Assembly (NCBI GenBank): GCA_963802335.1
Contig: CAWDIE010000009.1
Coordinates: 24,961-88,960 of the forward strand
DNA: 64,000 nt
Source of the DNA: an uncultured Planctomycetota bacterium
Lineage (GTDB): Bacteria; Planctomycetota; PLA2; JAEUHO01
Direction of reading: 5' to 3'
Shown: positions 2 through 45,757 of the stretch, piece by piece
Layout: the number at the start of each line of letters is the position of its first letter
How positions within the stretch are numbered: position 1 is the first letter of the stretch
The notes under the pieces: generated by a model
Seen by the model: the letters and a program-made list of their open reading frames with translations, nothing else
Database searches by the model: none
Told to the model about the DNA's origin: nothing
Translations under genes and position numbers: made by a program

Positions 2-1499
2 CCGCCGCGCGTTCGCGTGCCGGACCTCCGGGGGCGCGACCTCGTGACGGCGAGGCTTGCCCTGCTCCGGGCCGGCTTGCAGGGACGTCTCATCCACCGC
101 ATGGCGCCGGGGCAGCCGCTGCGGCGGGTCGTCGCGCAGACGCCGCGGCGCGGGACACCGCTCACGCTGGGGGACGTCGTGACGCTGGTCGTCCCGTCGG
201 AGGCCAGCGTGCCTGCGCTGCAGGGCCTCTCGGCGCCGGATGCCGTCCGGCGGCTCGAGGACGCCGGCTTCGAGGCCGAACCGCAGGGGCCCCCGGCCGC
301 GGGCCCGACCCGCGTTCGTGGAGCAGAGCTTCGGGCCGGGTACGCCGCTCGCCCGCGGCACTCGCGTCGCCTTCACCTACGTCGCGCGGGGTGGCCCGGC
401 GCTCGTTCGCGTACCGCAGGTGGCGACCCTGCGCCTCGACCTGGCCCAGGCCGAGCTCGCCGCGGCGGGTCTCGGCTACCGCGTCGGCGGGCCGGCCTTC
501 GGCCTCGGTCAGCGGCTGGTCGTTGCGCAGACCCCTGCGGCAGGGACCGCGCTGCCGCGGGGCGCCGAGGTTCACCTCCAGACCCGCTGGTCCGGTGGCG
601 GCGCGGGGCTGGGTGGGTTTCCGGGGCTCCGGCCGCCGTCCGCACCCGCCTCCGTGAAGGTGCCGGACCTGCGCGGACTGACCTTCAGCCGAGCGCTGCG
701 CAGCGTGACCGAGCGGGGGCTCCAGATCGACGGCCGCCACCTGCGCCATCCCGAGATGCGAGTCGTTGCGCAGGATCCGCCGCCGCATCGGCGCGTACCC
801 CGAGGCACGCGGATCCGCGTCGAGCTGGAGCGCCCGGATCGGCCGCCCGCGCCGAGTGGCACGATCGTGCCGCGACTCGTCGGGCACGAAGCCCAGGCGG
901 CGGCCCAGCTCCTCGCCCAACGGGGTCTGCGTGTCCGCTACGTGGACCAGCGCCCCGGCGGGGGACCGGCGACGGTCCGCCGACAGCATCCCGCGGTCGG
1001 GCGTCGTGTGCCCCCGAACAGCATCGTGACCCTGGCGCTCGAGTACCGCAACGCGCCCCCCGCCATGGAAGCCGTTCCGGTGCCCTCCGTCGTGGGCATG
1101 GAGGCACAAGCCGCGATGAAGCGGCTGAAGGCGGCGGGCCTGCAGGGGCGGATCGTGTCGTCTGGGACGCGCGGCAAGATCGTCCTGCGTCAGGCCCATG
1201 CGGGCGAGCAGGTGCCCCGGGGGACGACCATCCAGCTTCTCGTCGGTCGGGACCCGCGGGCCAAGCCGCACAAGAAGCCGCACGGCTCCGGCCAAGGGCA
1301 AGACGCCTCGCTGAGTCGCGGCTGGCCTACGGTGCCTGGCCTACGGTGCCAGGCACCCGTCCGCCAACTTCCACCATCAACACGCACCTGGATCAGGCGG
1401 ACACCACCACCAGGTCCCGGTCGGGAGCACGAAGGCGGGTTGCGCTTGGACCGCTTTGCCTTCGGGTATGGGCCGTACGCCAAGTTGGCGACATCGTGA
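2..1499 (+). pseudogene. PASTA-repeat protein (six PASTA modules). The 5' end lies outside the window and the reading frame breaks near 281-314.
   Basis: Frame 2 (nt 2 to about 300) and frame 3 (about 315-1499) both translate into repeated ~65-aa modules of the form VP.L.G....A...L...GL...(Q.P..G..L..G..V.L). The second module (VPALQGLSAPDAVRRLEDAGFEAEP... / ...FVEQSFGPGTPLARGTRVAFTYV) is split between the two frames. The last ~60 codons run through REP repeats. Confidence 0.6.
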
Positions 1500-14378: not shown

Positions 14379-14414
14379 AGCAGTACGGTGCCAGTCACCC
14401 GTCCGCCATCTTCC
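14379..14414. repeat. REP-like unit B (single, inverted orientation).
   Basis: AGCAGTACGGTGCCAGTCACCCGTCCGCCATCTTCC. Confidence 0.85.
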
Positions 14415-17426: not shown

Positions 17427-17564
17427 GGTGCCGGGAGGAGGGTGCCAGTCACCCGTCCGCCCGCGTCGCCGTGCGGTGGACCCGGTTCCTCGAGTTGGCG
17501 AAAGCGTGACTGGCACCGTACTTCGACTCCTCGAGTTGGCGAAAGCGTGACTGGCACCGTACTT
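17427..17564. repeat. REPIN-like composite C: an inverted arm at 17441-17461 plus two identical direct units at 17492-17521 and 17533-17562.
   Basis: A 38-bp perfect direct repeat TCCTCGAGTTGGCGAAAGCGTGACTGGCACCGTACTT with a period of 41 bp. The left arm is GGTGCCAGTCACCCGTCCGCC. Confidence 0.9.
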
Positions 17565-18977: not shown

Positions 18978-19094
18978 GACGGTGCCAGCCACCCGTCCAC
19001 CAGCGCCGCCTTGCGGAGTACCCGGTCCCCCGAGTTGGCGTACGCGTGACTGGCACCGTACTGCTAGTTGGCGTAAGCGTGACTGGCACCGTAC
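18978..19094. repeat. REPIN-like composite D, with the same architecture as composite C.
   Basis: Left arm GACGGTGCCAGCCACCCGTCCACC, a conserved spacer (..TTGCGGAGTACCCGGTCCCC), and units at 19032-19061 and 19065-19094. Confidence 0.9.
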
Positions 19095-37004: not shown

Positions 37005-37070
37005 CTACGGTGCCAGGCACGTTATCGCCAACTTCCAGTACGGTGCCAGGCACGCTTTCGCCAACTTCGG
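37005..37070. repeat. REP-like units E: two tandem units in inverted orientation, immediately upstream of the RAYT gene.
   Basis: CTACGGTGCCAGGCACGTTATCGCCAACTTCC followed by AGTACGGTGCCAGGCACGCTTTCGCCAACTTCGG. Confidence 0.9.
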
Positions 37071-39121: not shown

Positions 39122-39164
39122 GTGGCGGAAAGGTGACTGGCACCGTATTGGTGTTGCACCGTAC
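39122..39164. repeat. REP-like unit G plus a fragment.
   Basis: GTGGCGGAAAGGTGACTGGCACCGTAT, with GTTGCACCGTAC following. Confidence 0.85.
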
Positions 39165-39345
39165 TAAGGCCCCGAGCGAGGGGGGAATCTCCGTCCGGTC
39201 GCCTGGGCCAGGCCCGCTGAACCCAGTGGGAAATGAGTCGTGCGGGCCCGGTGGACCTGTACCGGGTGCGGCCGTCCCTGCGCAGGGATGCGGGGGCGAG
39301 GTCCGCCGGCGGACGCGGGCTCGTCTTGCCCAGGAGGTGCCCGCC

Positions 39346-42192
39346 ATGAAGCCGTCCATCCTGTCCATTGCGAGCGTCTTGCTCGCCGTAGCGGCCCTCG
39401 GGCTTCCCCTCGCCGGATGCGGTGGGGGTGGAGAGTCGACGGGGGGCGCGCGCTCCATCACGGCCGACGTGCCGCAGGCCCCGGCCGTCCCGCCGGCGCC
39501 GGACACACCCCAGCCGGGGCCCGCACCGCAACCTGGTGACGACCCGGCCGAGGATCCGGCGGATCCCGGTGACGTGCAGGACGATCCCGCGCTGCCGCCG
39601 GACGGTAGCGACGTGACCCCGCTCGATGCGCCGGCTGAGTTGCTCCGGTGGTCCGGCCTGGAAGACGTCCGGGCCCTGGCGCTGGATGCCGAGGAACGCC
39701 TCCTCTACGCGGCGTCGTCGGAATCCGGCCAGCTGTGGCGGATCGCCATCGACCAGGTCGACGTCGAACAAGGGGGTCTGCTTGCCGTCGAAGGGAGCGT
39801 CCGCGCGCTTGCGTTCGACCCCGGCCGCAAGCTCGTCTTCGCCGTCCTCGATCCGGCACCCGGCCAGATCGACCGTCTGCTCCGGATCCAGCCCGCCGCC
39901 TTCGTCGCCGGCGCGGGCGCACCGGAGGCCGACGACCTCGGTCCGATCGGGGACTACGCGTCTATCGAGGCGCTCGCCTTCGACGCCGAGCAAGAGGTCC
40001 TCTACGCCGTCGACGGGGACACGGACGCCCTAATCTCGATCCACCCCGAGTCCGCTGCAACGCAACTCGTAGCCAAGCTCGAAGGACTCGGAGAAGTCGT
40101 GGGTCTGGCCCCGGACCGCGACGCACGCAACCTGCTCGCCACGGACGGCGAGGACAATGTCCTGGCCACGATTGATGTGAGCAGCGGCGCTGTGACCGTG
40201 CTCGCCGCGCTGGACGAGGAGCGTGTGGAAGGCCTGGCGGCCGACCCGGAGAGCGACGTGCTCTACGGCGCCACCGTTTCCCCCGCGGACGTGTTCGCCT
40301 TCGACCCCGTTGGTCGACGCTGGGCGTTCGCCGAGATTCGCGGCATGGCCTTCGATCCCGCGGACCAACGCTACTTCGGCGTCCACACCGCAAGCGGTGT
40401 CATCCTGAAGATCGACGCCGACACCAAGCAGCGGGAGATGATCGGGTTCGTGCCCGTGCCGGGCCTGGAAGGGCTCGCCTACGATGAAGGCCAGCGGCTC
40501 CTCTACGCTGTCTCACGGGCCACCCAGCATCTCTACACCTTGCCCGTCGACGGGCTCACGATCCAGGCCGACCAGCTGCTCCACGGCGCGGCCGCGCCGT
40601 ACCTGGGGCTTGCGGCCTTGACGTTCCACCGGGGGGCGCTCTACGCGGCTGACGTCGACGCCGGCAATCTCCTCCGGATCGAGCCGGACACCGGCAACGC
40701 CGTCGTCGTGGCGCCCACCGTCGGGTTCCCGCAGATCGAAGGTCTGGCGTCCGACTCGGTCGCCAACGTCCTCCACGCCTTCGACAACGCTCAGCGTGCC
40801 TACCTGCTCCTGGACCTGCGGGCGCCCAATGCGCCCGTGATCATCCATCGCGACCAGATCGGCGCCGTCGGGGGCCTGGCCTGGAACGCCCAGGCGCGCG
40901 AGCTCGTGGGCACCGACACCATCGAGAATGACCTCGTTCTCGTGCGCGCGGCTCCCGAGCCGTCGCCGGTGGGCTACCAGAGCCTCTCCGCACTGGGCTA
41001 CCGCACGGACACCCAGCAGATGCTTGCATTCGATCGCGACACCCGGACCCTCTTGGAGATCGACCCCGGACTCAAGATCGGGATCCCGGTTGCGACACTC
41101 GACGACGTGGCGGTCGAGGGCATGACCTTCCTGCCCGACAAGGGACGCCTCATCGCGGTGGATGCCGACGCGGGCAGTCTCTACCTGGTCGATGCCGAAG
41201 GCAGTCTCCTGCCGATCGGGCCGGCCGGCTTCCTCGCGCCCCGTCGCGTGAAGGCGCTCGCGCATGACGGCGAGCGAGGTGTGCTCTTCGGCGTGGACGT
41301 CGACGCCAACGTCCTGCTGGCGATCGATCCCGACCCGGGGAACGTCGACGTCATCGACCCCAGCGACGTCGGACTTGGTTACGCCACCGTGGAGGCCCTG
41401 GCCTTCGACGCCCAGACCGGCACACTGCTCGGCTTGGACCGTGCGACCCGGACGCTCCTCAGGATCGACCGCGACATCGGAACCGCCGAGCCGCTGGGCT
41501 TGGTCGATGCGATCGACGTAGCCGGCATGGAGAACCTGCCTGGCTCCGCCATCCTGTGGCTTGCGAGCGGCGGTGACCTCGTCTCCGTCGACAAGCACAG
41601 CGGCGATCCGCTCGAACCGGGGCCGACGTTGGCCCTCGAAGACACCGCCGGTGATGGCCTCGGTGACGTCAAGCTCTTCTGGCCGCAAGGGGACGTGCGT
41701 CGCGACGCGCTCGCTACCTGCGCCGTGGAAGTCGGCGCCAGCTACGAGGGTGCACTTGACCTCGAGCTCCGCTGTGGCGACCGCGTGCTGCACAGGTCCC
41801 AGCTGACGCCGGAGGGGGCGCTCGCTCGCTTCCAGATCCCCGAGGGGGTTCGTGCCGCCTTGGAGTCGGGTGCCGCGATCACCTGGCGGGTCGGCAACGT
41901 GAGCGCGGCCTTCCGCGTCGTGGACGAGACCAGTGGGCGAGCCGACATACAGGCCATCCTCGCTCACCCGACCGTCACCAGCCGATCCGACTGGCAGCGG
42001 CGCCTCGTCGAGGCGTACGCCTTGGACCGTGCGGGCCTCCACAGCGAGGCGCTCGTGGTGGGAATCGGTACCTACGAGACCTATCCCGATCACCCGACGT
42101 CGGCACGCGCGCTGCTCAAGACCCTCGAGCACCTGGGACTCGTGCAGACGCGGCTCGGGCGGGAGATCTTCCTGAAGGCGCTACGGCCTTAG
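39346..42192 (+). CDS. Lipoprotein with about 15 beta-propeller-type repeats and a C-terminal domain of unknown function.
   Basis: AGGAGG SD and lipobox LPLAGC. A recurrent ~45-aa unit (V/I)E(A/G)LAFD.....L(Y/L)A(V/A)D.....L..ID. Confidence 0.8.
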   Translation: MKPSILSIASVLLAVAALGLPLAGCGGGGESTGGARSITADVPQAPAVPPAPDTPQPGPAPQPGDDPAEDPADPGDVQDDPALPPDGSDVTPLDAPAELLRWSGLEDVRALALDAEERLLYAASSESGQLWRIAIDQVDVEQGGLLAVEGSVRALAFDPGRKLVFAVLDPAPGQIDRLLRIQPAAFVAGAGAPEADDLGPIGDYASIEALAFDAEQEVLYAVDGDTDALISIHPESAATQLVAKLEGLGEVVGLAPDRDARNLLATDGEDNVLATIDVSSGAVTVLAALDEERVEGLAADPESDVLYGATVSPADVFAFDPVGRRWAFAEIRGMAFDPADQRYFGVHTASGVILKIDADTKQREMIGFVPVPGLEGLAYDEGQRLLYAVSRATQHLYTLPVDGLTIQADQLLHGAAAPYLGLAALTFHRGALYAADVDAGNLLRIEPDTGNAVVVAPTVGFPQIEGLASDSVANVLHAFDNAQRAYLLLDLRAPNAPVIIHRDQIGAVGGLAWNAQARELVGTDTIENDLVLVRAAPEPSPVGYQSLSALGYRTDTQQMLAFDRDTRTLLEIDPGLKIGIPVATLDDVAVEGMTFLPDKGRLIAVDADAGSLYLVDAEGSLLPIGPAGFLAPRRVKALAHDGERGVLFGVDVDANVLLAIDPDPGNVDVIDPSDVGLGYATVEALAFDAQTGTLLGLDRATRTLLRIDRDIGTAEPLGLVDAIDVAGMENLPGSAILWLASGGDLVSVDKHSGDPLEPGPTLALEDTAGDGLGDVKLFWPQGDVRRDALATCAVEVGASYEGALDLELRCGDRVLHRSQLTPEGALARFQIPEGVRAALESGAAITWRVGNVSAAFRVVDETSGRADIQAILAHPTVTSRSDWQRRLVEAYALDRAGLHSEALVVGIGTYETYPDHPTSARALLKTLEHLGLVQTRLGREIFLKALRP

Positions 42193-42244
42193 CAGAACAC
42201 TTTCGAGACGCGGGTGGACGGACGTCTACTCGGGCCTCCTCCCA

Positions 42245-42271
42245 GGGGCGCGGCCTCGTTGGCCGCGCCCC
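42245..42271 (+). terminator. GC-rich hairpin downstream of the lipoprotein gene (terminator-like, no clear U-tract).
   Basis: GGGGCGCGGCC-TCGTT-GGCCGCGCCCC: a perfect 11-bp stem with a 5-nt loop. Confidence 0.45.
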
Positions 42272-42354
42272 GCCTCGTGTCCTGCGCGCGACCCCGGGGA
42301 GTCGGGCACCTCCCCCCCCTCGCATGCGCGTCCACGGGATGGACGTTGTCGTGC

Positions 42355-42375
42355 GAGTTGGCGGACCGGTGCCTG
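42355..42375. repeat. Left part of a REP unit interrupted by the IS element.
   Basis: GAGTTGGCGGACCGGTGCCTG. The remainder, GCACCGTAC, resumes at 43867. Confidence 0.8.
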
Positions 42376-42473
42376 ATGACCTAAACGGGCAATCCCTCCG
42401 GGCGGGGAACGATGTCCCCGATCGGGTTCAGAGTCCCAGTTGAGACGCAACTCAACACCCGAAGGGATGCCCG

Positions 42474-43571
42474 ATGAGGAAACTCGTACGACCGGTGCAG
42501 AAAGTCAACACAGCGTCGGTGGGTTTGGATGTCCACCAGAACGTCATCGTCTACGCCCGCCTGGACCGCCATGGCAACGAGGCCGGCAAGGGGGCCATTC
42601 GTTCCCGGCCGGAGGCCCTGACGAAGTTCCTGGCCAGCCTGGAGGAGCCCACCCATGTGGCGTTCGAGGCCGGCGGCTCGACGTTCTGGGTCTACGACCT
42701 ACTCGTTGACGAACTGGGTGCGGACTTCGTTCACGTGGCCCAACCCAAGAAGATCCGTGCCATCGCCAACAGCACACAGAAGAATGACAGCAACGATGCG
42801 TGGTGGCTGGCCTACCTCACCTACGAGGGCCGACTGCCCGAGTGCTTCATCCCCACGGGGAAGTTGCGCGAACTGCGGATCGCGGTTCGTGAGCGATTCG
42901 CCCTCGTGCAGCAGATCAGCAGGGTGAAGACGCGCATCAAGTCGCACCTCCGGCAGTTGGGGATCTCGCTGCCGGTCCGGAAGGTGGACTCGATCCGCGG
43001 CTGGAACTTCTTGGTGGACCTGGCCGAAGAGCGCTCGGACGTGCAGGGGATGGCGGTGATGCAGTCCCTGGTGCTACTCGAGTACCTACTGGAAGCCCGC
43101 GAGGCGTGGGAGGAGACCATCGACGACTTGGCCAAGTCCTTCCCAGAAGTCCACACGCTCCAAACCGAGATGCCGGGCATTGGCTGCCGGCTCGCCGCCG
43201 TGATCATCGCCGAGCTCGGGCCCGTGGACCGCTTCACGTCAGCCAAGGCCATGGGGCGCTTTGCTGGCCTCACGCCATCGGATCGAAGCTCCGCGGGGAA
43301 GACCCGCTATGGGGTGATCACGAGGGAGGGAAGCGAGCACCTGCGCTGGGCCCTCACCCAGGCTGCCATGGCATGCACGAGAGCACGATCCGGGCCAGGT
43401 CTTGCCGCGGGGAACTGGATCCGAGCTAAGCAGCGACGCATGGGAAGCAAGGGCAAGGCACGGGTGGCGGCCGCTCGGAAGATCACGGAGTCGATCTGGC
43501 GTCTGTTCCAATGGGGTGAGTGCTTCGACCCGGCCAAGCCCTTCGGTGGGATGCCCGCAGGCGCCCGCTAA
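42474..43571 (+). CDS. IS110-family DEDD transposase/recombinase.
   Basis: N-terminal VGLDVHQ...VAFEAGG...NDSNDAWWLA (RuvC-like DEDD). C-terminal MPGIGCRLAAVIIAELGPVDRFTSAKAMGRFAGLTPSDRSSAGK. Confidence 0.92.
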   Translation: MRKLVRPVQKVNTASVGLDVHQNVIVYARLDRHGNEAGKGAIRSRPEALTKFLASLEEPTHVAFEAGGSTFWVYDLLVDELGADFVHVAQPKKIRAIANSTQKNDSNDAWWLAYLTYEGRLPECFIPTGKLRELRIAVRERFALVQQISRVKTRIKSHLRQLGISLPVRKVDSIRGWNFLVDLAEERSDVQGMAVMQSLVLLEYLLEAREAWEETIDDLAKSFPEVHTLQTEMPGIGCRLAAVIIAELGPVDRFTSAKAMGRFAGLTPSDRSSAGKTRYGVITREGSEHLRWALTQAAMACTRARSGPGLAAGNWIRAKQRRMGSKGKARVAAARKITESIWRLFQWGECFDPAKPFGGMPAGAR

Positions 43572-43864
43572 GACAGCAGAGGTTTTGAGGAGAGATCGGA
43601 TAGGCGAGAGGGAGTCAGTTTCGGAAGGCAGCTGAGCCCGAGGTGCCAGTGGCGGCGCAAGCCGAGGGTCTTGGCCTCCAAGCCACGTGCCCCAAGCCGT
43701 GTGCCTGATTGGGAAGCTGCCCTCCGAAATCGACAGCATGGGACACGGAGCCCGAAGAGATGATTGGCTACGAGCTGCCTCCCTCCCGCCTGTCCACTAG
43801 GAGGGCCATGGCGTAGAAACTAGAAACCAGAGCTGGGGCTTGACTCGGATAGCCCGTTTAGAGA
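43572..43864 (+). ncRNA. Candidate bridge/seek RNA encoded in the 3' non-coding arm of the IS.
   Basis: A 15-bp stem (one mismatch), 43619-43633 paired with 43715-43729, encloses GGTGCCAG (43642-43649) and GTGCCTGAT (43701-43709). AGAGATGAT (43756-43764) equals the predicted circle junction. No transcription evidence is available. Confidence 0.35.
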
Positions 43865-43910
43865 TGGCACCGTACTCGAGTTGGCGGACTGGTGACTGGC
43901 ACCGTACTGC
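43864..43910. repeat. REP-like units H: the right part of the interrupted unit plus one intact direct unit (43878-43907).
   Basis: ..GCACCGTACTC followed by GAGTTGGCGGACTGGTGACTGGCACCGTAC. Confidence 0.85.
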
Positions 43911-43947
43911 TCGTGACGGTGGGGAGGGGGGCACGTACACTTCCGGC

Positions 43948-44619
43948 ATGCGCGTCCTCGTCGTGGAAGACGACCCCAAGATCGCCTCGTTCGTCGGCAA
44001 CGGCCTCAAGGAGGCCGGCTTCACCGTCGACGTCGCGGCCAACGGCGACGATGGTCTGGCCATGGCGCTCGACGCGAAGCACGACGCGGCCGTCGTGGAC
44101 ATCATGCTCCCCGGCATCGACGGGCTCGAGGTCATCGAGACCCTGCGAGCGCGCGGCGTGAACACGCCGGTCTTGATCCTCTCGGCGAAGCACTCCGTCG
44201 ACGACCGCATCCGCGGCCTCCAGGCCGGCGGCGACGACTACATGGTCAAACCCTTCTCCTTCGAAGAGGTCCTGGCGCGTGTGCAGGCGTTGATCCGTCG
44301 CTCGACGGGCACCTCGGAACCCACCACCCTGACCGTGGGCGAGGTCCAGATGGACCTTCTCGCACGCACCGTGACGCGGGAGGGCAAGAAGGTCGATCTA
44401 CGGCCGCGCGAGCTCTCGCTCCTGGAGCTCATGATGCGCAGCCCCGGGCGCATGTTGTCCAAGACCACGATTCTCGAGCGGGTCTTCGAGTACGACTTCG
44501 ATCCGCAAACCAACGTCGTCGGCGTTCTGGTGCACCGCCTCCGTGCGAAGCTGGACAAGGACTTCGAACGCAAGCTGATTCAGACTGTGCGTGGAGTGGG
44601 CTATGTCTTCGAGCCTTGA
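43948..44619 (+). CDS. OmpR-family response regulator.
   Basis: MRVLVVEDD...DAAVVDIMLPGIDG...DDYMVKPF, plus a winged-helix C-terminus ...TVRGVGYVF. Confidence 0.92.
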   Translation: MRVLVVEDDPKIASFVGNGLKEAGFTVDVAANGDDGLAMALDAKHDAAVVDIMLPGIDGLEVIETLRARGVNTPVLILSAKHSVDDRIRGLQAGGDDYMVKPFSFEEVLARVQALIRRSTGTSEPTTLTVGEVQMDLLARTVTREGKKVDLRPRELSLLELMMRSPGRMLSKTTILERVFEYDFDPQTNVVGVLVHRLRAKLDKDFERKLIQTVRGVGYVFEP

Positions 44620-45757
44620 ACGCCGCGCCTCGCTGCGGCTCGGTGTCAAGCTCAGCCTCGCGTTCATGCTCCTCTTCGGCGTCGTCGGATTGGCATTCGG
44701 TTACGGGATGTCCCGCCTCGTGTGGGAGGCCATGGAGGAGGAGTGGGACCAGGAGCTTCGGGCGTGCTTCGAGTCGAGCGAGCGCCCCGATGAGGACATG
44801 CGGCCGACCGTCCAGCGAATTCGCGCCTCGGCGGAGAAGCACTTCCAGGACAAGCTACCGCTGCTCCTCATTCCGTCTCTCGTCGTCGGGCTGGCCGGAG
44901 GTCTCGGCCTCACCTACCTCCTCACCCGCAACCAGCGAAACGTCCTGCGCGCCGTCCAGCGGATTCGGCGGACGGGGAGCTACGACGAACGCCTGCCGCT
45001 CACGAACCAACGCGGGGCCATGCGCGAGATGGTGGTTCTCTTCAACGAGATGTTCGAGCTGACCGAGAAGCAACTGAATCGATTCCGCGAGTCCCTGGAC
45101 AGCGTGGCCCACGACCTGAGGACGCCGCTCGCACGCTTGCGGGGAAGCGCGGAGAGCGTGCTCAAGAAGGGCAAGACCGTCGACGACTACCGGTCCACGA
45201 TGTCCGACTGTCTGGAAGAGAGCGAGCAGCTCGTCGGGATGCTCAACGCCCTCATGGCGATCGCGGAAGCCGAGGCCGGCGCCCTGGAGATCCAGTCGGT
45301 TCCCGTGCCCGTGTCCGAGCTCATCCAGAGCGTGGCCGACCTCTACGCCTTCGTCGGGGAGGACCGTGACGTCCGCGTGGAGGTGGATCTCGAGCCCGAC
45401 CTGGTCGTGGCCGGCCACCCCGAGCTGCTCCGCCAGGCGCTGGCCAATCTCGTCGACAACGCGGTCAAGTTCAGCCCCGATGGGGGACGCGTCGAAATCG
45501 CGGCCCGCAGGGAGGGCGACGAGGTCATCTTCCTGATCTGCGACGAAGGACCGGGGGTCCCGCCCGACGAAGCCGAGCGGATCTGGGAACGGCTCTACCG
45601 TGGGGACAAGAGTCGGCAGACCCCCGGATTGGGGCTGGGGCTCAGTTTCGTGCGCGCCATCGTGCACGCCCATAGGGGCAGCGTGGAGGCCGAGAACCGG
45701 CCGGATGGCGGTGCTGTCTTCACCGTCCACCTGCCGACCGGCGAGCGCGTTTCTTAG
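44603..45757 (+). CDS. Sensor histidine kinase (2 TM, HAMP, HisKA, HATPase).
   Basis: H-box SVAHDLRTPLARL, N-box LANLVDNAVKF, G-boxes DEGPGV and GLGLGLS. 17-nt overlap with the regulator gene. Confidence 0.9.
   Translation: MSSSLERRASLRLGVKLSLAFMLLFGVVGLAFGYGMSRLVWEAMEEEWDQELRACFESSERPDEDMRPTVQRIRASAEKHFQDKLPLLLIPSLVVGLAGGLGLTYLLTRNQRNVLRAVQRIRRTGSYDERLPLTNQRGAMREMVVLFNEMFELTEKQLNRFRESLDSVAHDLRTPLARLRGSAESVLKKGKTVDDYRSTMSDCLEESEQLVGMLNALMAIAEAEAGALEIQSVPVPVSELIQSVADLYAFVGEDRDVRVEVDLEPDLVVAGHPELLRQALANLVDNAVKFSPDGGRVEIAARREGDEVIFLICDEGPGVPPDEAERIWERLYRGDKSRQTPGLGLGLSFVRAIVHAHRGSVEAENRPDGGAVFTVHLPTGERVS

What the first reader, a model, noticed from the sequence alone, without database searches (positions are those of the whole stretch)
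43572..43864. Candidate guide (bridge/seek) RNA in the long 3' arm, with strings matching both target and donor junctions
The arm has a 15-bp stem with one mismatch (TTTCGGAAGGCAGCT at 43619-43633 pairing with AGCTGCCCTCCGAAA at 43715-43729). The stem encloses an internal region with three features:
- GGTGCCAG (43642-43649), the complement of the REP core CTGGCACC.
- GTGCCTGAT (43701-43709), identical to the left junction: target GTGCC, core TG, and the IS start AT.
- About 50 nt further on, AGAGATGAT (43756-43764), identical to the predicted circle junction: right end AGAGA, core TG, left end AT.

Both of the last two strings are followed by the same TTGG. This layout, with two loops that each pair a variable guide with a shared core, is what bridge RNAs of IS110 elements and seekRNAs of IS1111 elements look like. 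The long 3' arm and the subterminal 9-bp inverted repeats fit the IS1111 subgroup.
Basis: inference. Interest (0 to 1): 0.65.

Follow-up and report, generated by a model that had tools for sequence, protein, structure and literature searches.

The report
Guide RNA gene of an IS1111-type element
The long tail of this mobile element encodes a folded guide RNA of the known seekRNA/bridge RNA kind.

Summary
Every string and the 15-bp stem are present at the stated coordinates. In 200,000 shuffles of the arm, the three strings never occurred together.

The region is the 3' non-coding arm of a 1,489-bp IS110-family element of the IS1111 type. The element spans 42376-43864 and its transposase gene 42474-43571. 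It sits in a REP-like repeat at a TG core. A metagenome contig that joins 42373 directly to 43865 confirms the boundaries.

I compared 49 related loci, which fall into 26 lineages with different guide sets.
- The right-target guide (43642-43648) tracks the right flank: 102 of 110 positions match, against 70 when flanks are shuffled between lineages.
- The left-target guide (43701-43707) tracks the left flank: 87 of 110, against 53.
- In one lineage the core dinucleotide changes together in all three guide strings and at both junctions.
- The donor string follows the last base of the right end.
- The helices keep pairing through compensatory changes: 79% of cells paired, against 35-45% when partners are slid.

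The guide order, with the top-strand match 5' of the bottom-strand match, and donor-matching bases in a multiloop both fit published IS1111 seekRNAs and bridge RNAs.

Three things are not shown: the transcript itself, its strand, and a convincing right-donor guide.

This is a new member of a known kind, of moderate interest.

The parts
42376..43864 (+). Insertion sequence, 1,489 bp, IS110 family, IS1111 type. It shares one TG core with the target.
   Evidence: The junctions were read. An empty-site contig in DNA run X5 joins 42373 to 43865, skipping 1,491 bases with a 2-nt overlap. Only one copy is in the window.
42369..42375 (+). Left target half GTGCC plus the core TG. This is half of a REP-like repeat.
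   Evidence: An intact neighbouring repeat at 43878-43908 has the same sequence without an IS.
43865..43871 (+). Core TG plus the right target half GCACC.
   Evidence: (D8).
42381..42395 (+). Left subterminal inverted repeat (CTAAACGGGC core), 5 nt in from the IS end.
   Evidence: I8: 15 nt, 93% complementary to 43847-43861. Conserved in relatives.
43847..43861 (+). Right subterminal inverted repeat (GCCCGTTTAG core), 3 nt in from the IS end.
   Evidence: I8. Conserved in relatives.
42474..43571 (+). Transposase/recombinase gene, 365 aa.
   Evidence: Pfam DEDD_Tnp_IS110 (3e-18) and Transposase_20 (1e-21). NCBIfam NF033542 'IS110 family RNA-guided transposase', 208 bits against a cutoff of 140. 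D19, E65, D105 and D108 are invariant and the motif GLTPSDRS[S/T]xG is present.
43598..43795 (+). Conserved structured region: the predicted long seekRNA/bridge RNA, from the P1 5' strand to the P1 3' strand.
   Evidence: nhmmer with the 28-relative alignment hits 43599-43795 at E = 1.5e-53 and nowhere else in the window.
43598..43618 (+). P1 outer stem, 5' strand. Pairs with 43775-43795.
   Evidence: I3 (21 nt, 86%). 19 of 21 pairs show changes on both sides among relatives.
43775..43795 (+). P1 outer stem, 3' strand.
43619..43633 (+). P2 stem, 5' strand.
   Evidence: (I5). 8 pairs have compensatory changes and 84% of cells are paired.
43715..43729 (+). P2 stem, 3' strand.
43637..43639 (+). 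CCC that closes the target-binding loop by pairing with GGG at 43711-43713.
   Evidence: RNAalifold pairs 48-50/125-127, invariant in all 28 sequences. This gives no covariation information.
43642..43649 (+). Right-target guide (RTG). [quoted passage not shown]
   Evidence: 102 of 110 positions match across 22 lineages. Flank shuffles give a mean of 70.1 and a maximum of 88, with 0 of 100,000 reaching the observed value. The blind column scan ranks 43646, 43645 and 43644 against right flank +1, +2 and +3 (complementary) among the strongest signals, 43646/+1 being first.
43651..43698 (+). Inner hairpin (P3 GGC/GCC plus a variable P4) that separates the two target guides.
   Evidence: P3 is 100% paired with 15 cells changed on both sides. 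P4 has 5 of 6 pairs with changes on both sides.
43701..43709 (+). Left-target guide (LTG). [quoted passage not shown] The invariant AT that follows equals the first two bases of the IS.
   Evidence: 87 of 110 positions match across 22 lineages. Flank shuffles give a mean of 52.8 and a maximum of 78, with 0 of 100,000 reaching the observed value. The blind scan picks 43702, 43703 and 43704 against left flank -4, -3 and -2 (identical). This guide is looser than the RTG.
43731..43738 (+). Tentative right-donor guide (RDG), CGACAGCA. It could pair with the top strand of core plus IS left end (TG ATGTCC in most relatives).
   Evidence: the pairing pattern is x||||x|| in most lineages. GA changes to AG in the RNA together with TC to CT in the left end in one clade. 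The pairing is not compensated in the window element (left end ATGACC), L043 or L046, and the core complement is not kept in several lineages. This is weak evidence from a single evolutionary event.
43740..43753 (+). Possible mini-hairpin P5 (GGG / CCC) between the two donor segments. The CCC belongs to a second copy of the GAGCCCGA motif.
   Evidence: RNAalifold pairs 154-156/165-167, invariant. There is no covariation information.
43756..43764 (+). Left-donor guide (LDG). AGAGA+TG is identical to the IS right end plus core. The AT that follows equals the IS left end, so the whole string equals the circle junction.
   Evidence: Identical to the predicted junction. The string arises by chance in 0.4% of shuffles. 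Position 5 (A or G) follows the last base of the right end in 27 of 27 relatives. The core changes to AG in L011 together with the RTG, the LTG and both junctions.
43840..43845 (+). TTGACT, a -35-like hexamer in the right end. It is a candidate half of a junction promoter.
   Evidence: On the circle, TTGACT plus 17 nt plus GA|TG|AT gives GATGAT (9 of 12 matches to the consensus). On the linear element the second hexamer is GATGGC. No promoter-like site was found in the linear IS. This is inference only.
43878..43908 (+). Intact neighbouring copy of the target repeat (GAGTTGGCGGACTGGTGAC TG GCACCGTACT).
   Evidence: (D2, D8).

Best explanation
The 3' arm encodes the seekRNA/bridge RNA of an IS1111-type insertion sequence. 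The RNA is most likely cut out of a read-through transcript on the same strand as the transposase gene.

It folds into two stacked helices, P1 and P2. P2 carries an 11 x 12-nt internal loop, the target-binding loop.
[quoted passage not shown] The junction between P2 and P1 carries AGAGA-UG. [quoted passage not shown] A weaker candidate for the left end lies just upstream.

The transposase has a DEDD domain and a serine-bearing C-terminal domain. Bound to this RNA, it would bring the circle junction and a REP-like site GTGCC-TG-GCACC together and exchange strands at the TG. That inserts the element without a target duplication.

Shown here:
- the element and its exact boundaries;
- the strings;
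- the conserved fold;
- co-variation of guides with flanks, with the core and with the right end.

Inferred from the characterised family:
- that the arm acts as RNA, and on the + strand;
- binding by the transposase;
- the chemistry of strand exchange.
For: - Transposase domains.
- Subterminal repeats and arm lengths.
- Exact boundaries from an empty-site contig, plus a second insertion site with the same target in another metagenome.
- Target is a repeat family with 11 copies in the window against 0.01 expected.
- RTG against right flank: 102/110, with a shuffle mean of 70. LTG against left flank: 87/110, with a shuffle mean of 53. None of 100,000 shuffles reached either value.
- The blind scan of all alignment columns against all junction positions returns these registers among its strongest signals; the only others as strong involve right end -1.
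- In L011 the core is AG at both junctions and in the RTG (CT), LTG (AG) and LDG (AG).
- The LDG follows the last base of the right end.
- Fold: 79% of cells are paired, against 35-45% when partners are slid. 34 pairs change on both sides, against 17-24 in the slid controls. No shuffle reached the observed values (0 of 500).
- The top-then-bottom order matches IS1111 seekRNAs (PMC11187229). The definitions of LTG, RTG, LDG and RDG, and donor bases in a multiloop for IS1111, come (PMC11208160).
- Metatranscriptome contigs about 95% identical cover 43578-43725.
Against: - No transcript is shown for this element. The RNA-library contigs have depth of about 2.5, carry no strand information, could be contaminating DNA, and the runs were selected because they hold arm sequence.
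- Folding does not decide the strand. The - strand has the lower MFE in 20 of 28 relatives.
- Wobble pairs give mixed signals: P3 favours the + strand, while one P2 pair favours the - strand.
- Rfam 15 has no matching family.
- The LTG is imperfect. In two multi-copy relatives most insertions mismatch it, at -3 in both and also at -5 in one of them.
- The LDG evidence rests on a few evolutionary events. L001 has an uncompensated mismatch (right end AGACA against guide AGAGA).
- No convincing RDG was found, and the window element's own left end (ATGACC) mismatches the candidate.
Confidence: 0.85

Rival explanations
1. Target-only seekRNA. The P2 hairpin with its two target guides is the functional RNA. 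The donor-like string AGAGATGAT is scaffold or coincidence. The IS ends are recognised by the transposase through the subterminal repeats and through the target-like flanks, as proposed for ISEc11, where an 82-nt RNA was sufficient.
For: - Siddiquee et al. found that a short seekRNA carrying only target matches supports transposition, and that the donor flanks must match the target.
- TGATTGG follows both strings and GAGCCCGA precedes both the RTG and the LDG, so part of the donor string is a repeated scaffold motif.
- AGAG never varies.
- No convincing RDG was found.
- L001 tolerates a mismatch between the LDG and its right end.
Against: - The core inside the donor string changes to AG in L011 together with the junction cores.
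- Position 5 follows the last base of the right end in 27 of 27 relatives.
- The 9-mer equals the circle junction, at a chance of about 0.4%.
- Durrant et al. report donor-binding bases in multiloops of IS1111 bridge RNAs.
Confidence: 0.12
2. The guide RNA is transcribed from the - strand. The same two loops would then read the opposite strands of each target half.
For: - The - strand folds at least as well in 20 of 28 relatives.
- A conserved A.C in P2 would be a G.U pair on the - strand.
- Guide co-variation and the top-then-bottom order are the same for either strand.
Against: - All characterised IS1111 seekRNAs are sense to the transposase gene and lie downstream of it.
- No promoter-like site was found on either strand of the linear element.
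- The only candidate promoter, the junction promoter, drives the + strand.
- P3 shows 10 G.U cells and no A.C cell on the + strand.
Confidence: 0.06
3. The arm acts as DNA, for example as a protein-binding end or a folded single strand during transposition, and not through a transcript.
For: Nothing found here speaks for it; it stays open only because the comparative data cannot formally separate a DNA fold from an RNA fold and no RNA is shown for this element.
Against: - Homologous arms of IS1111 elements give RNAs that co-purify with the transposase and work in trans.
- NCBIfam places the protein in the RNA-guided transposase model.
- G.U-compatible changes occur in P3.
Confidence: 0.03
4. 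The matches are chance, or leftovers of junction sequence, with no function.
For: The single-sequence folding z-score is only -1.89.
Against: - In 200,000 shuffles the three strings never occurred together.
- Co-variation holds across 22 lineages.
- The fold is conserved through compensatory changes.
Confidence: 0.01

Closest known systems
seekRNAs of IS1111-family elements ISEc11, ISPa11, ISKpn4 and ISPst6 (Siddiquee et al. 2024, PMC11187229)
   Same: - The RNA is encoded in the long non-coding region downstream of the transposase gene.
- Subterminal inverted repeats are present.
[quoted passage not shown]
- Relatives are naturally re-targeted by changes in those matches while the stems stay the same.
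- ISPa11 also inserts into REP sequences.
   Different: - The transposase is only about 23-33% identical to named plasmid-borne IS110-family members and is longer, at 365 aa against the quoted 330-350.
- The serine motif reads S[S/T]xG rather than S(T)G.
- The conserved RNA is about 198 nt with a distinct outer helix.
- The RNA has a donor-junction string that co-varies, which the seekRNA paper does not describe.
- Nothing has been tested experimentally here.
Bridge RNA of IS621 and other IS110-group elements (Durrant et al. 2024, PMC11208160; Hiraizumi et al. 2024, PMC11208158)
   Same: [quoted passage not shown]
- The core dinucleotide is shared by the target and donor guides.
- The enzyme is a DEDD plus serine recombinase.
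- The target is a REP.
   Different: - The RNA lies in the right end, not the left end.
- The guide order within the loop is reversed.
- The donor bases sit in a three-way junction, not in a second internal loop.
- The only candidate for the two bases past the core sits on the bottom-strand guides and never varies. In IS621 the handshake guides flank the top-strand guides.
- With a single sequence the protein matches IS621/ISCro4 only over the C-terminal part (E about 1e-10); a family profile raises this to 1e-17 to 1e-20 and adds a weak N-terminal match.
ISHvo10 and ISMch4 families (the closest named transposases found)
   Same: Full-length similarity of about 32% identity over 93-95% of the protein. 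Siddiquee et al. list ISHvo10 among the IS1111 relatives, as a more diverged one.
   Different: They are distant. Their RNAs and targets were not compared here.

Membership tests
IS110 family, IS1111 group (the element) | An N-terminal DEDD (RuvC-like) domain and a C-terminal Transposase_20 domain with a conserved Ser/Thr motif. | tested here: met
   PF01548 and PF02371 are both above their cutoffs. NF033542 scores 208 bits against a cutoff of 140. D19, E65, D105 and D108 are invariant. GLTPSDRS[S/T]xG is present; the window protein has SSAG.
IS110 family, IS1111 group (the element) | Subterminal inverted repeats of about 7-17 bp, set in from the ends. | tested here: met
   10 bp perfect, or 15 nt at 93%, lying 5 nt and 3 nt in from the ends. 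Conserved in relatives.
IS110 family, IS1111 group (the element) | The longer non-coding region lies downstream of the transposase gene. | tested here: met
   The 5' arm is 98 nt (42376-42473) and the 3' arm is 293 nt (43572-43864).
IS110 family, IS1111 group (the element) | Site-specific insertion without a target duplication, with a shared core at both junctions. | tested here: met
   The empty-site contig skips 1,491 bases with a 2-nt overlap. TG is present at both junctions. A second site in run X2 has the same target.
IS110 family, IS1111 group (the element) | A circular intermediate with abutted ends, often forming a junction promoter. | not testable with these tools
   No circle-junction joint was seen in the contigs of four DNA runs, but contigs drop rare forms. 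The candidate promoter, TTGACT-17-GATGAT, was found only by inspection.
IS110 family, IS1111 group (the element) | The transposase is related over its full length to IS1111-group transposases. | tested here: inconclusive
   Full-length matches of 23-33% identity to many plasmid IS110-family genes, including ISHvo10, which the seekRNA paper groups with the IS1111 relatives. No phylogeny against ISfinder reference sequences was possible.
seekRNA / bridge RNA | Two loop segments complementary to the top strand (right half) and the bottom strand (left half) of the target, overlapping at the core. | tested here: met
   Present in the window and co-varying with the flanks in 22 lineages.
seekRNA / bridge RNA | In IS1111, the top-strand match lies 5' of the bottom-strand match. 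| tested here: met
   The RTG at 43642-43648 lies 5' of the LTG at 43701-43707. This order holds for either strand, so it does not fix the strand.
seekRNA / bridge RNA | Guides sit in loops of a conserved stem scaffold that is kept through compensatory changes. | tested here: met
   79% of cells paired, 34 pairs changed on both sides, covariation score 0.301 against 0.09-0.12 with partners slid.
seekRNA / bridge RNA | Donor-binding guides for both IS ends (LDG and RDG). | tested here: inconclusive
   The LDG is supported (identity, core change in L011, last base of the right end). The RDG is only tentative and is mismatched in the window element.
seekRNA / bridge RNA | A transcript that is bound by the transposase and required for transposition. 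| not testable with these tools
   Only low-depth, unstranded metatranscriptome contigs of close relatives are available.
seekRNA / bridge RNA | A match to a published covariance model. | not testable with these tools
   Rfam 15 gives no hit in 42200-44000 even at E <= 10. The models of Durrant et al. are not available here.

The most novel reading that the evidence does not exclude
This subfamily may use a differently wired donor site from IS621. The donor guides sit in a three-way junction built from a duplicated GAGCCCGA...UGAUUGG module. The two bases beyond the core (AU) lie on the bottom-strand guides of both loops. The target loop would then already match the insertion product (left target-core-IS start), and the donor loop would match the circle. 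That would imply a handshake on the bottom strand, or a different order or directionality of strand exchange from the top-strand-first IS621 mechanism.
Probability: 0.15. Interest if true: 0.6.

Novelty: new member of a known kind. Interest (0 to 1): 0.38.

Why it matters
It adds a clearly readable, naturally re-targeted set of IS1111-type guide RNAs from uncultured sediment bacteria. There are 26 lineages on one scaffold with many different 5+2+5-nt targets.

Sets like this help in three ways:
- to work out the guide rules of the less-studied IS1111 branch, including mismatch tolerance on the left guide and how the donor is read;
- to annotate such arms in genomes, where they are usually left unannotated;
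- to choose candidates for programmable recombinases.

For this genome, it explains why the element sits in a REP-like repeat. Three more sites in the window match both guides perfectly and could be hit.

Tried and rejected
- An Rfam scan at a permissive threshold gave only noise, from miRNA and sbcD models.
- Single-sequence folding z-score was too weak to use.
- GGGACA(C/T) (43740-43746) and CAGCAT (43734-43739) were considered as right-donor guides. Both were rejected because they behave as scaffold and do not follow the left-end variants. The shifted register CGACAGCA was kept only as tentative.
- Strand determination from folding energy and wobble counts was inconclusive.
- The genome-contig scan gave only 4 loci.
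- The exact protein of the window is not on record for contig look-up.
- No sigma-70-like promoter or terminator was found inside the linear element.
- No circle-junction contig was found in four DNA runs.
- The right-flank bases +6 to +9 (GTA[CT]) are conserved across relatives, but an extension of the RTG does not pair with them.

Full report
**Observation**

- The 15-bp stem is 43619-43633 / 43715-43729, with one A.C mismatch.
- GGTGCCAG is at 43642-43649, GTGCCTGAT at 43701-43709 and AGAGATGAT at 43756-43764. The last two are each followed by TTGG.
- The left junction is GTGCC|TG|ATGACC and the right junction is AGAGA|TG|GCACC.
- So the strings equal the left junction, the predicted circle junction, and the reverse complement of C-TG-GCACC.

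These matches are not chance.
- In the 64-kb window GTGCCTGAT occurs only at the junction and in the arm. AGAGATGAT occurs only in the arm.
- In 200,000 dinucleotide shuffles of the arm, the three strings appeared 360, 756 and 2,685 times singly and never together.

**The element**

- The ORF at 42474-43571 encodes a 365-aa protein with DEDD_Tnp_IS110 and Transposase_20 domains.
- It passes the NCBIfam model 'IS110 family RNA-guided transposase'.
- D19, E65, D105 and D108 are invariant among relatives, and the motif GLTPSDRS[S/T]xG is present.
- Solved structures of IS621 and ISCro4 match mainly the C-terminal part.
- Named plasmid IS110-family genes, with ISMch4 and ISHvo10 closest, match over the full length at about 23-33% identity.
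- Subterminal inverted repeats lie at 42381-42395 and 43847-43861.
- The 5' arm is 98 nt and the 3' arm is 293 nt.

**The target**

The target is a REP-like repeat. GTG[A/C]CTGGCACCGTA occurs 11 times in the window against 0.01 expected. An intact copy lies next door at 43878-43908.

**Boundaries and mobility**

- In DNA run X5 a contig joins 42373 directly to 43865, skipping 1,491 bases with a 2-nt overlap. This is the unoccupied site exactly as predicted for a 1,489-bp element plus one TG.
- The same run also holds the occupied form.
- In run X2 the same element has different outer flanks beyond GGTGCC...TGGCACCGTAC. That is a second insertion into the same kind of site.

**Relatives**

Protein searches and contig look-ups gave 49 loci with transposases 50-87% identical. 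The arms align well, with a constant scaffold and variable short segments. Parsing guides and junctions gave 26 lineages with different guide sets.

**Guide co-variation**

- Right-target guide. The correct register is one pad base after AGCCCG, then 5 nt, then the core complement. It matches right-flank positions +1 to +5 at 102 of 110 positions in 22 lineages. Shuffling flanks among lineages gives a mean of 70.1 and a maximum of 88 in 100,000 trials.
- Left-target guide. It matches left-flank positions -5 to -1 at 87 of 110 positions, against a shuffle mean of 52.8 and a maximum of 78.
- Blind scan. Every alignment column was tested against every junction position. Among the strongest signals it returned 43646, 43645 and 43644 (complementary to right flank +1, +2, +3) and 43702, 43703 and 43704 (identical to left flank -4, -3, -2). 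The pair 43646/+1 ranked first. The only other signals as strong involve right end -1 and are confounded by clade.
- Core. In L011 the core is AG at both junctions. The RTG has CT, the LTG has AG and the donor string has AG.
- Caveat. The shuffles ignore relatedness between lineages. The guide changes are scattered across clades, however, so relatedness is unlikely to explain the signal.

**Looseness of the left guide**

Two relatives occur at several different sites (L024-L033 and L034-L042). In both, the right flank always matches the RTG. Most left flanks mismatch the LTG, at -3 in both relatives and also at -5 in one of them.

**Donor side**

- AGAGA-TG (43756-43762) equals the right end plus core. 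The AT that follows equals the first two bases of the element.
- Position 5 is A or G in step with the last base of the right end in 27 of 27 relatives. This is essentially one clade-level event and is confounded with other clade markers.
- L001 carries an uncompensated mismatch (right end AGACA).
- A right-donor guide is not established. The obvious candidates are scaffold.
- The shifted register CGACAGCA (43731-43738) pairs x||||x|| with TG-ATGTCC in most lineages. In one clade GA swaps to AG together with TC to CT in the left end.
- That candidate is mismatched in the window element, whose left end ATGACC is unique, and in its two closest relatives.

**Fold**

- RNAalifold recovers P2, a CCC/GGG closure of the loop, and P3 and P4.
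- With the outer stem P1 added, 79% of cells are paired, against 35-45% when partners are slid by 1-3 columns.
- 34 pairs show changes on both sides, against 17-24 in the slid controls.
- The covariation score is 0.301, against 0.09-0.12 in the slid controls. No shuffle out of 500 reached the observed values.

The picture is as follows.
- P1 is 43598-43618 / 43775-43795.
- P2 is 43619-43633 / 43715-43729 and stacks on P1.
- An 11 x 12-nt internal loop holds the RTG on its 5' side and the LTG on its 3' side.
- An inner hairpin spans 43651-43698.
- A 45-nt junction strand (43730-43774) between P2 and P1 carries the donor segments around a possible mini-hairpin.
- GAGCCCGA precedes both the RTG and the LDG, and TGATTGG follows both the LTG and the LDG. 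The two sites therefore look like a duplicated module.

**Comparison with the literature**

- Siddiquee et al. show that IS1111 seekRNAs lie downstream of the transposase gene and co-purify with the transposase. They also show that these RNAs carry a top-strand match 5' of a bottom-strand match, and that relatives are naturally re-targeted.
- Durrant et al. define the LTG, RTG, LDG and RDG and predict bridge RNAs in 93% of IS1111 elements, in the right end. They note donor-binding bases in multiloops for many IS1111 members.
- Hiraizumi et al. describe handshake guides next to the top-strand guides of IS621.
- The present arm fits the IS1111 pattern on every point that could be tested.

**What is not shown**

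- Rfam has no matching family.
- No promoter-like site lies in the linear element. By inspection, the circle would create TTGACT-17-GATGAT.
- Metatranscriptome contigs about 95% identical cover 43578-43725 and neighbouring parts. They are low depth, unstranded and subject to selection bias.
- Folding energies and wobble counts do not fix the strand.
- The + strand is therefore inferred from the characterised family and from G.U pairs in P3.

**Verdict**

This is a new, distant member of the known seekRNA/bridge RNA class of IS1111-type elements. It has a well-defined target loop and a partly resolved donor site.

Noticed in passing
window 1342-1356, 14384-14398, 17506-17561, 19046-19093, 37006-37053, 39133-39147, 43892-43906: A REP-like repeat family (GTG[A/C]CTGGCACCGTA, often preceded by GAGTTGGCGGAC) has 11 copies in the window, several in pairs 33-41 bp apart. 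Three unoccupied copies match both guides perfectly (1342-1356, 37006-37020, 37039-37053, all on the - strand).
   Followed up: partly
right flanks of relatives (L001-L047) and window 43870-43876: Right-flank positions +4 to +9 read C[CG]GTA[CT] in most independent insertion sites of different lineages, although the RTG covers only +1 to +5. It is unexplained whether this reflects a REP family shared by the hosts or read-out by the protein.
   Followed up: partly
window 42373/43865 in DNA run X5; 42368 and 43875 in run X2: Empty-site and occupied alleles coexist in one soil metagenome. A salt-marsh metagenome holds the same IS at a different locus with the same target. The element therefore appears to have been active recently.
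   Followed up: yes
window 42376-42381: The window element's left end is ATGACC. Relatives have ATGTCC, ATGCTC, ATGCTG or ATGTCG. The A at position +4 is unique and breaks the candidate pairing with 43733.
   Followed up: partly
L009 and L002 junctions: In two relatives the core differs between the two junctions (TG on one side, CG on the other). In L009 the RTG carries the CG version. This may be a trace of mismatched-core recombination.
   Followed up: no
window 43626/43722: An A.C mismatch in the middle of P2 is conserved in 15 of 28 relatives and replaced by C-G or A-U in the others. It would be a G.U pair on the opposite strand.
   Followed up: partly
window 43948-45757 and 39133-42192: The IS lies between a 1,019-aa ORF (39133-42192) upstream and two ORFs downstream that overlap at 44591-44619 (reading from ATG 43948 to 44619, and 44591-45757). 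From their translated sequences alone these look like a repeat-rich secreted protein, a response regulator and a sensor kinase; no domain search was run on them. The outward-facing TTGACT in the right end lies about 100 bp upstream of the first downstream ORF.
   Followed up: no
L019 and L023 (same 882-kb metagenome contig): Two copies of one relative lie on one contig. In L023 the match to the transposase begins only at residue 82, so that copy may be partial or degraded. Its arm and guides are intact.
   Followed up: no
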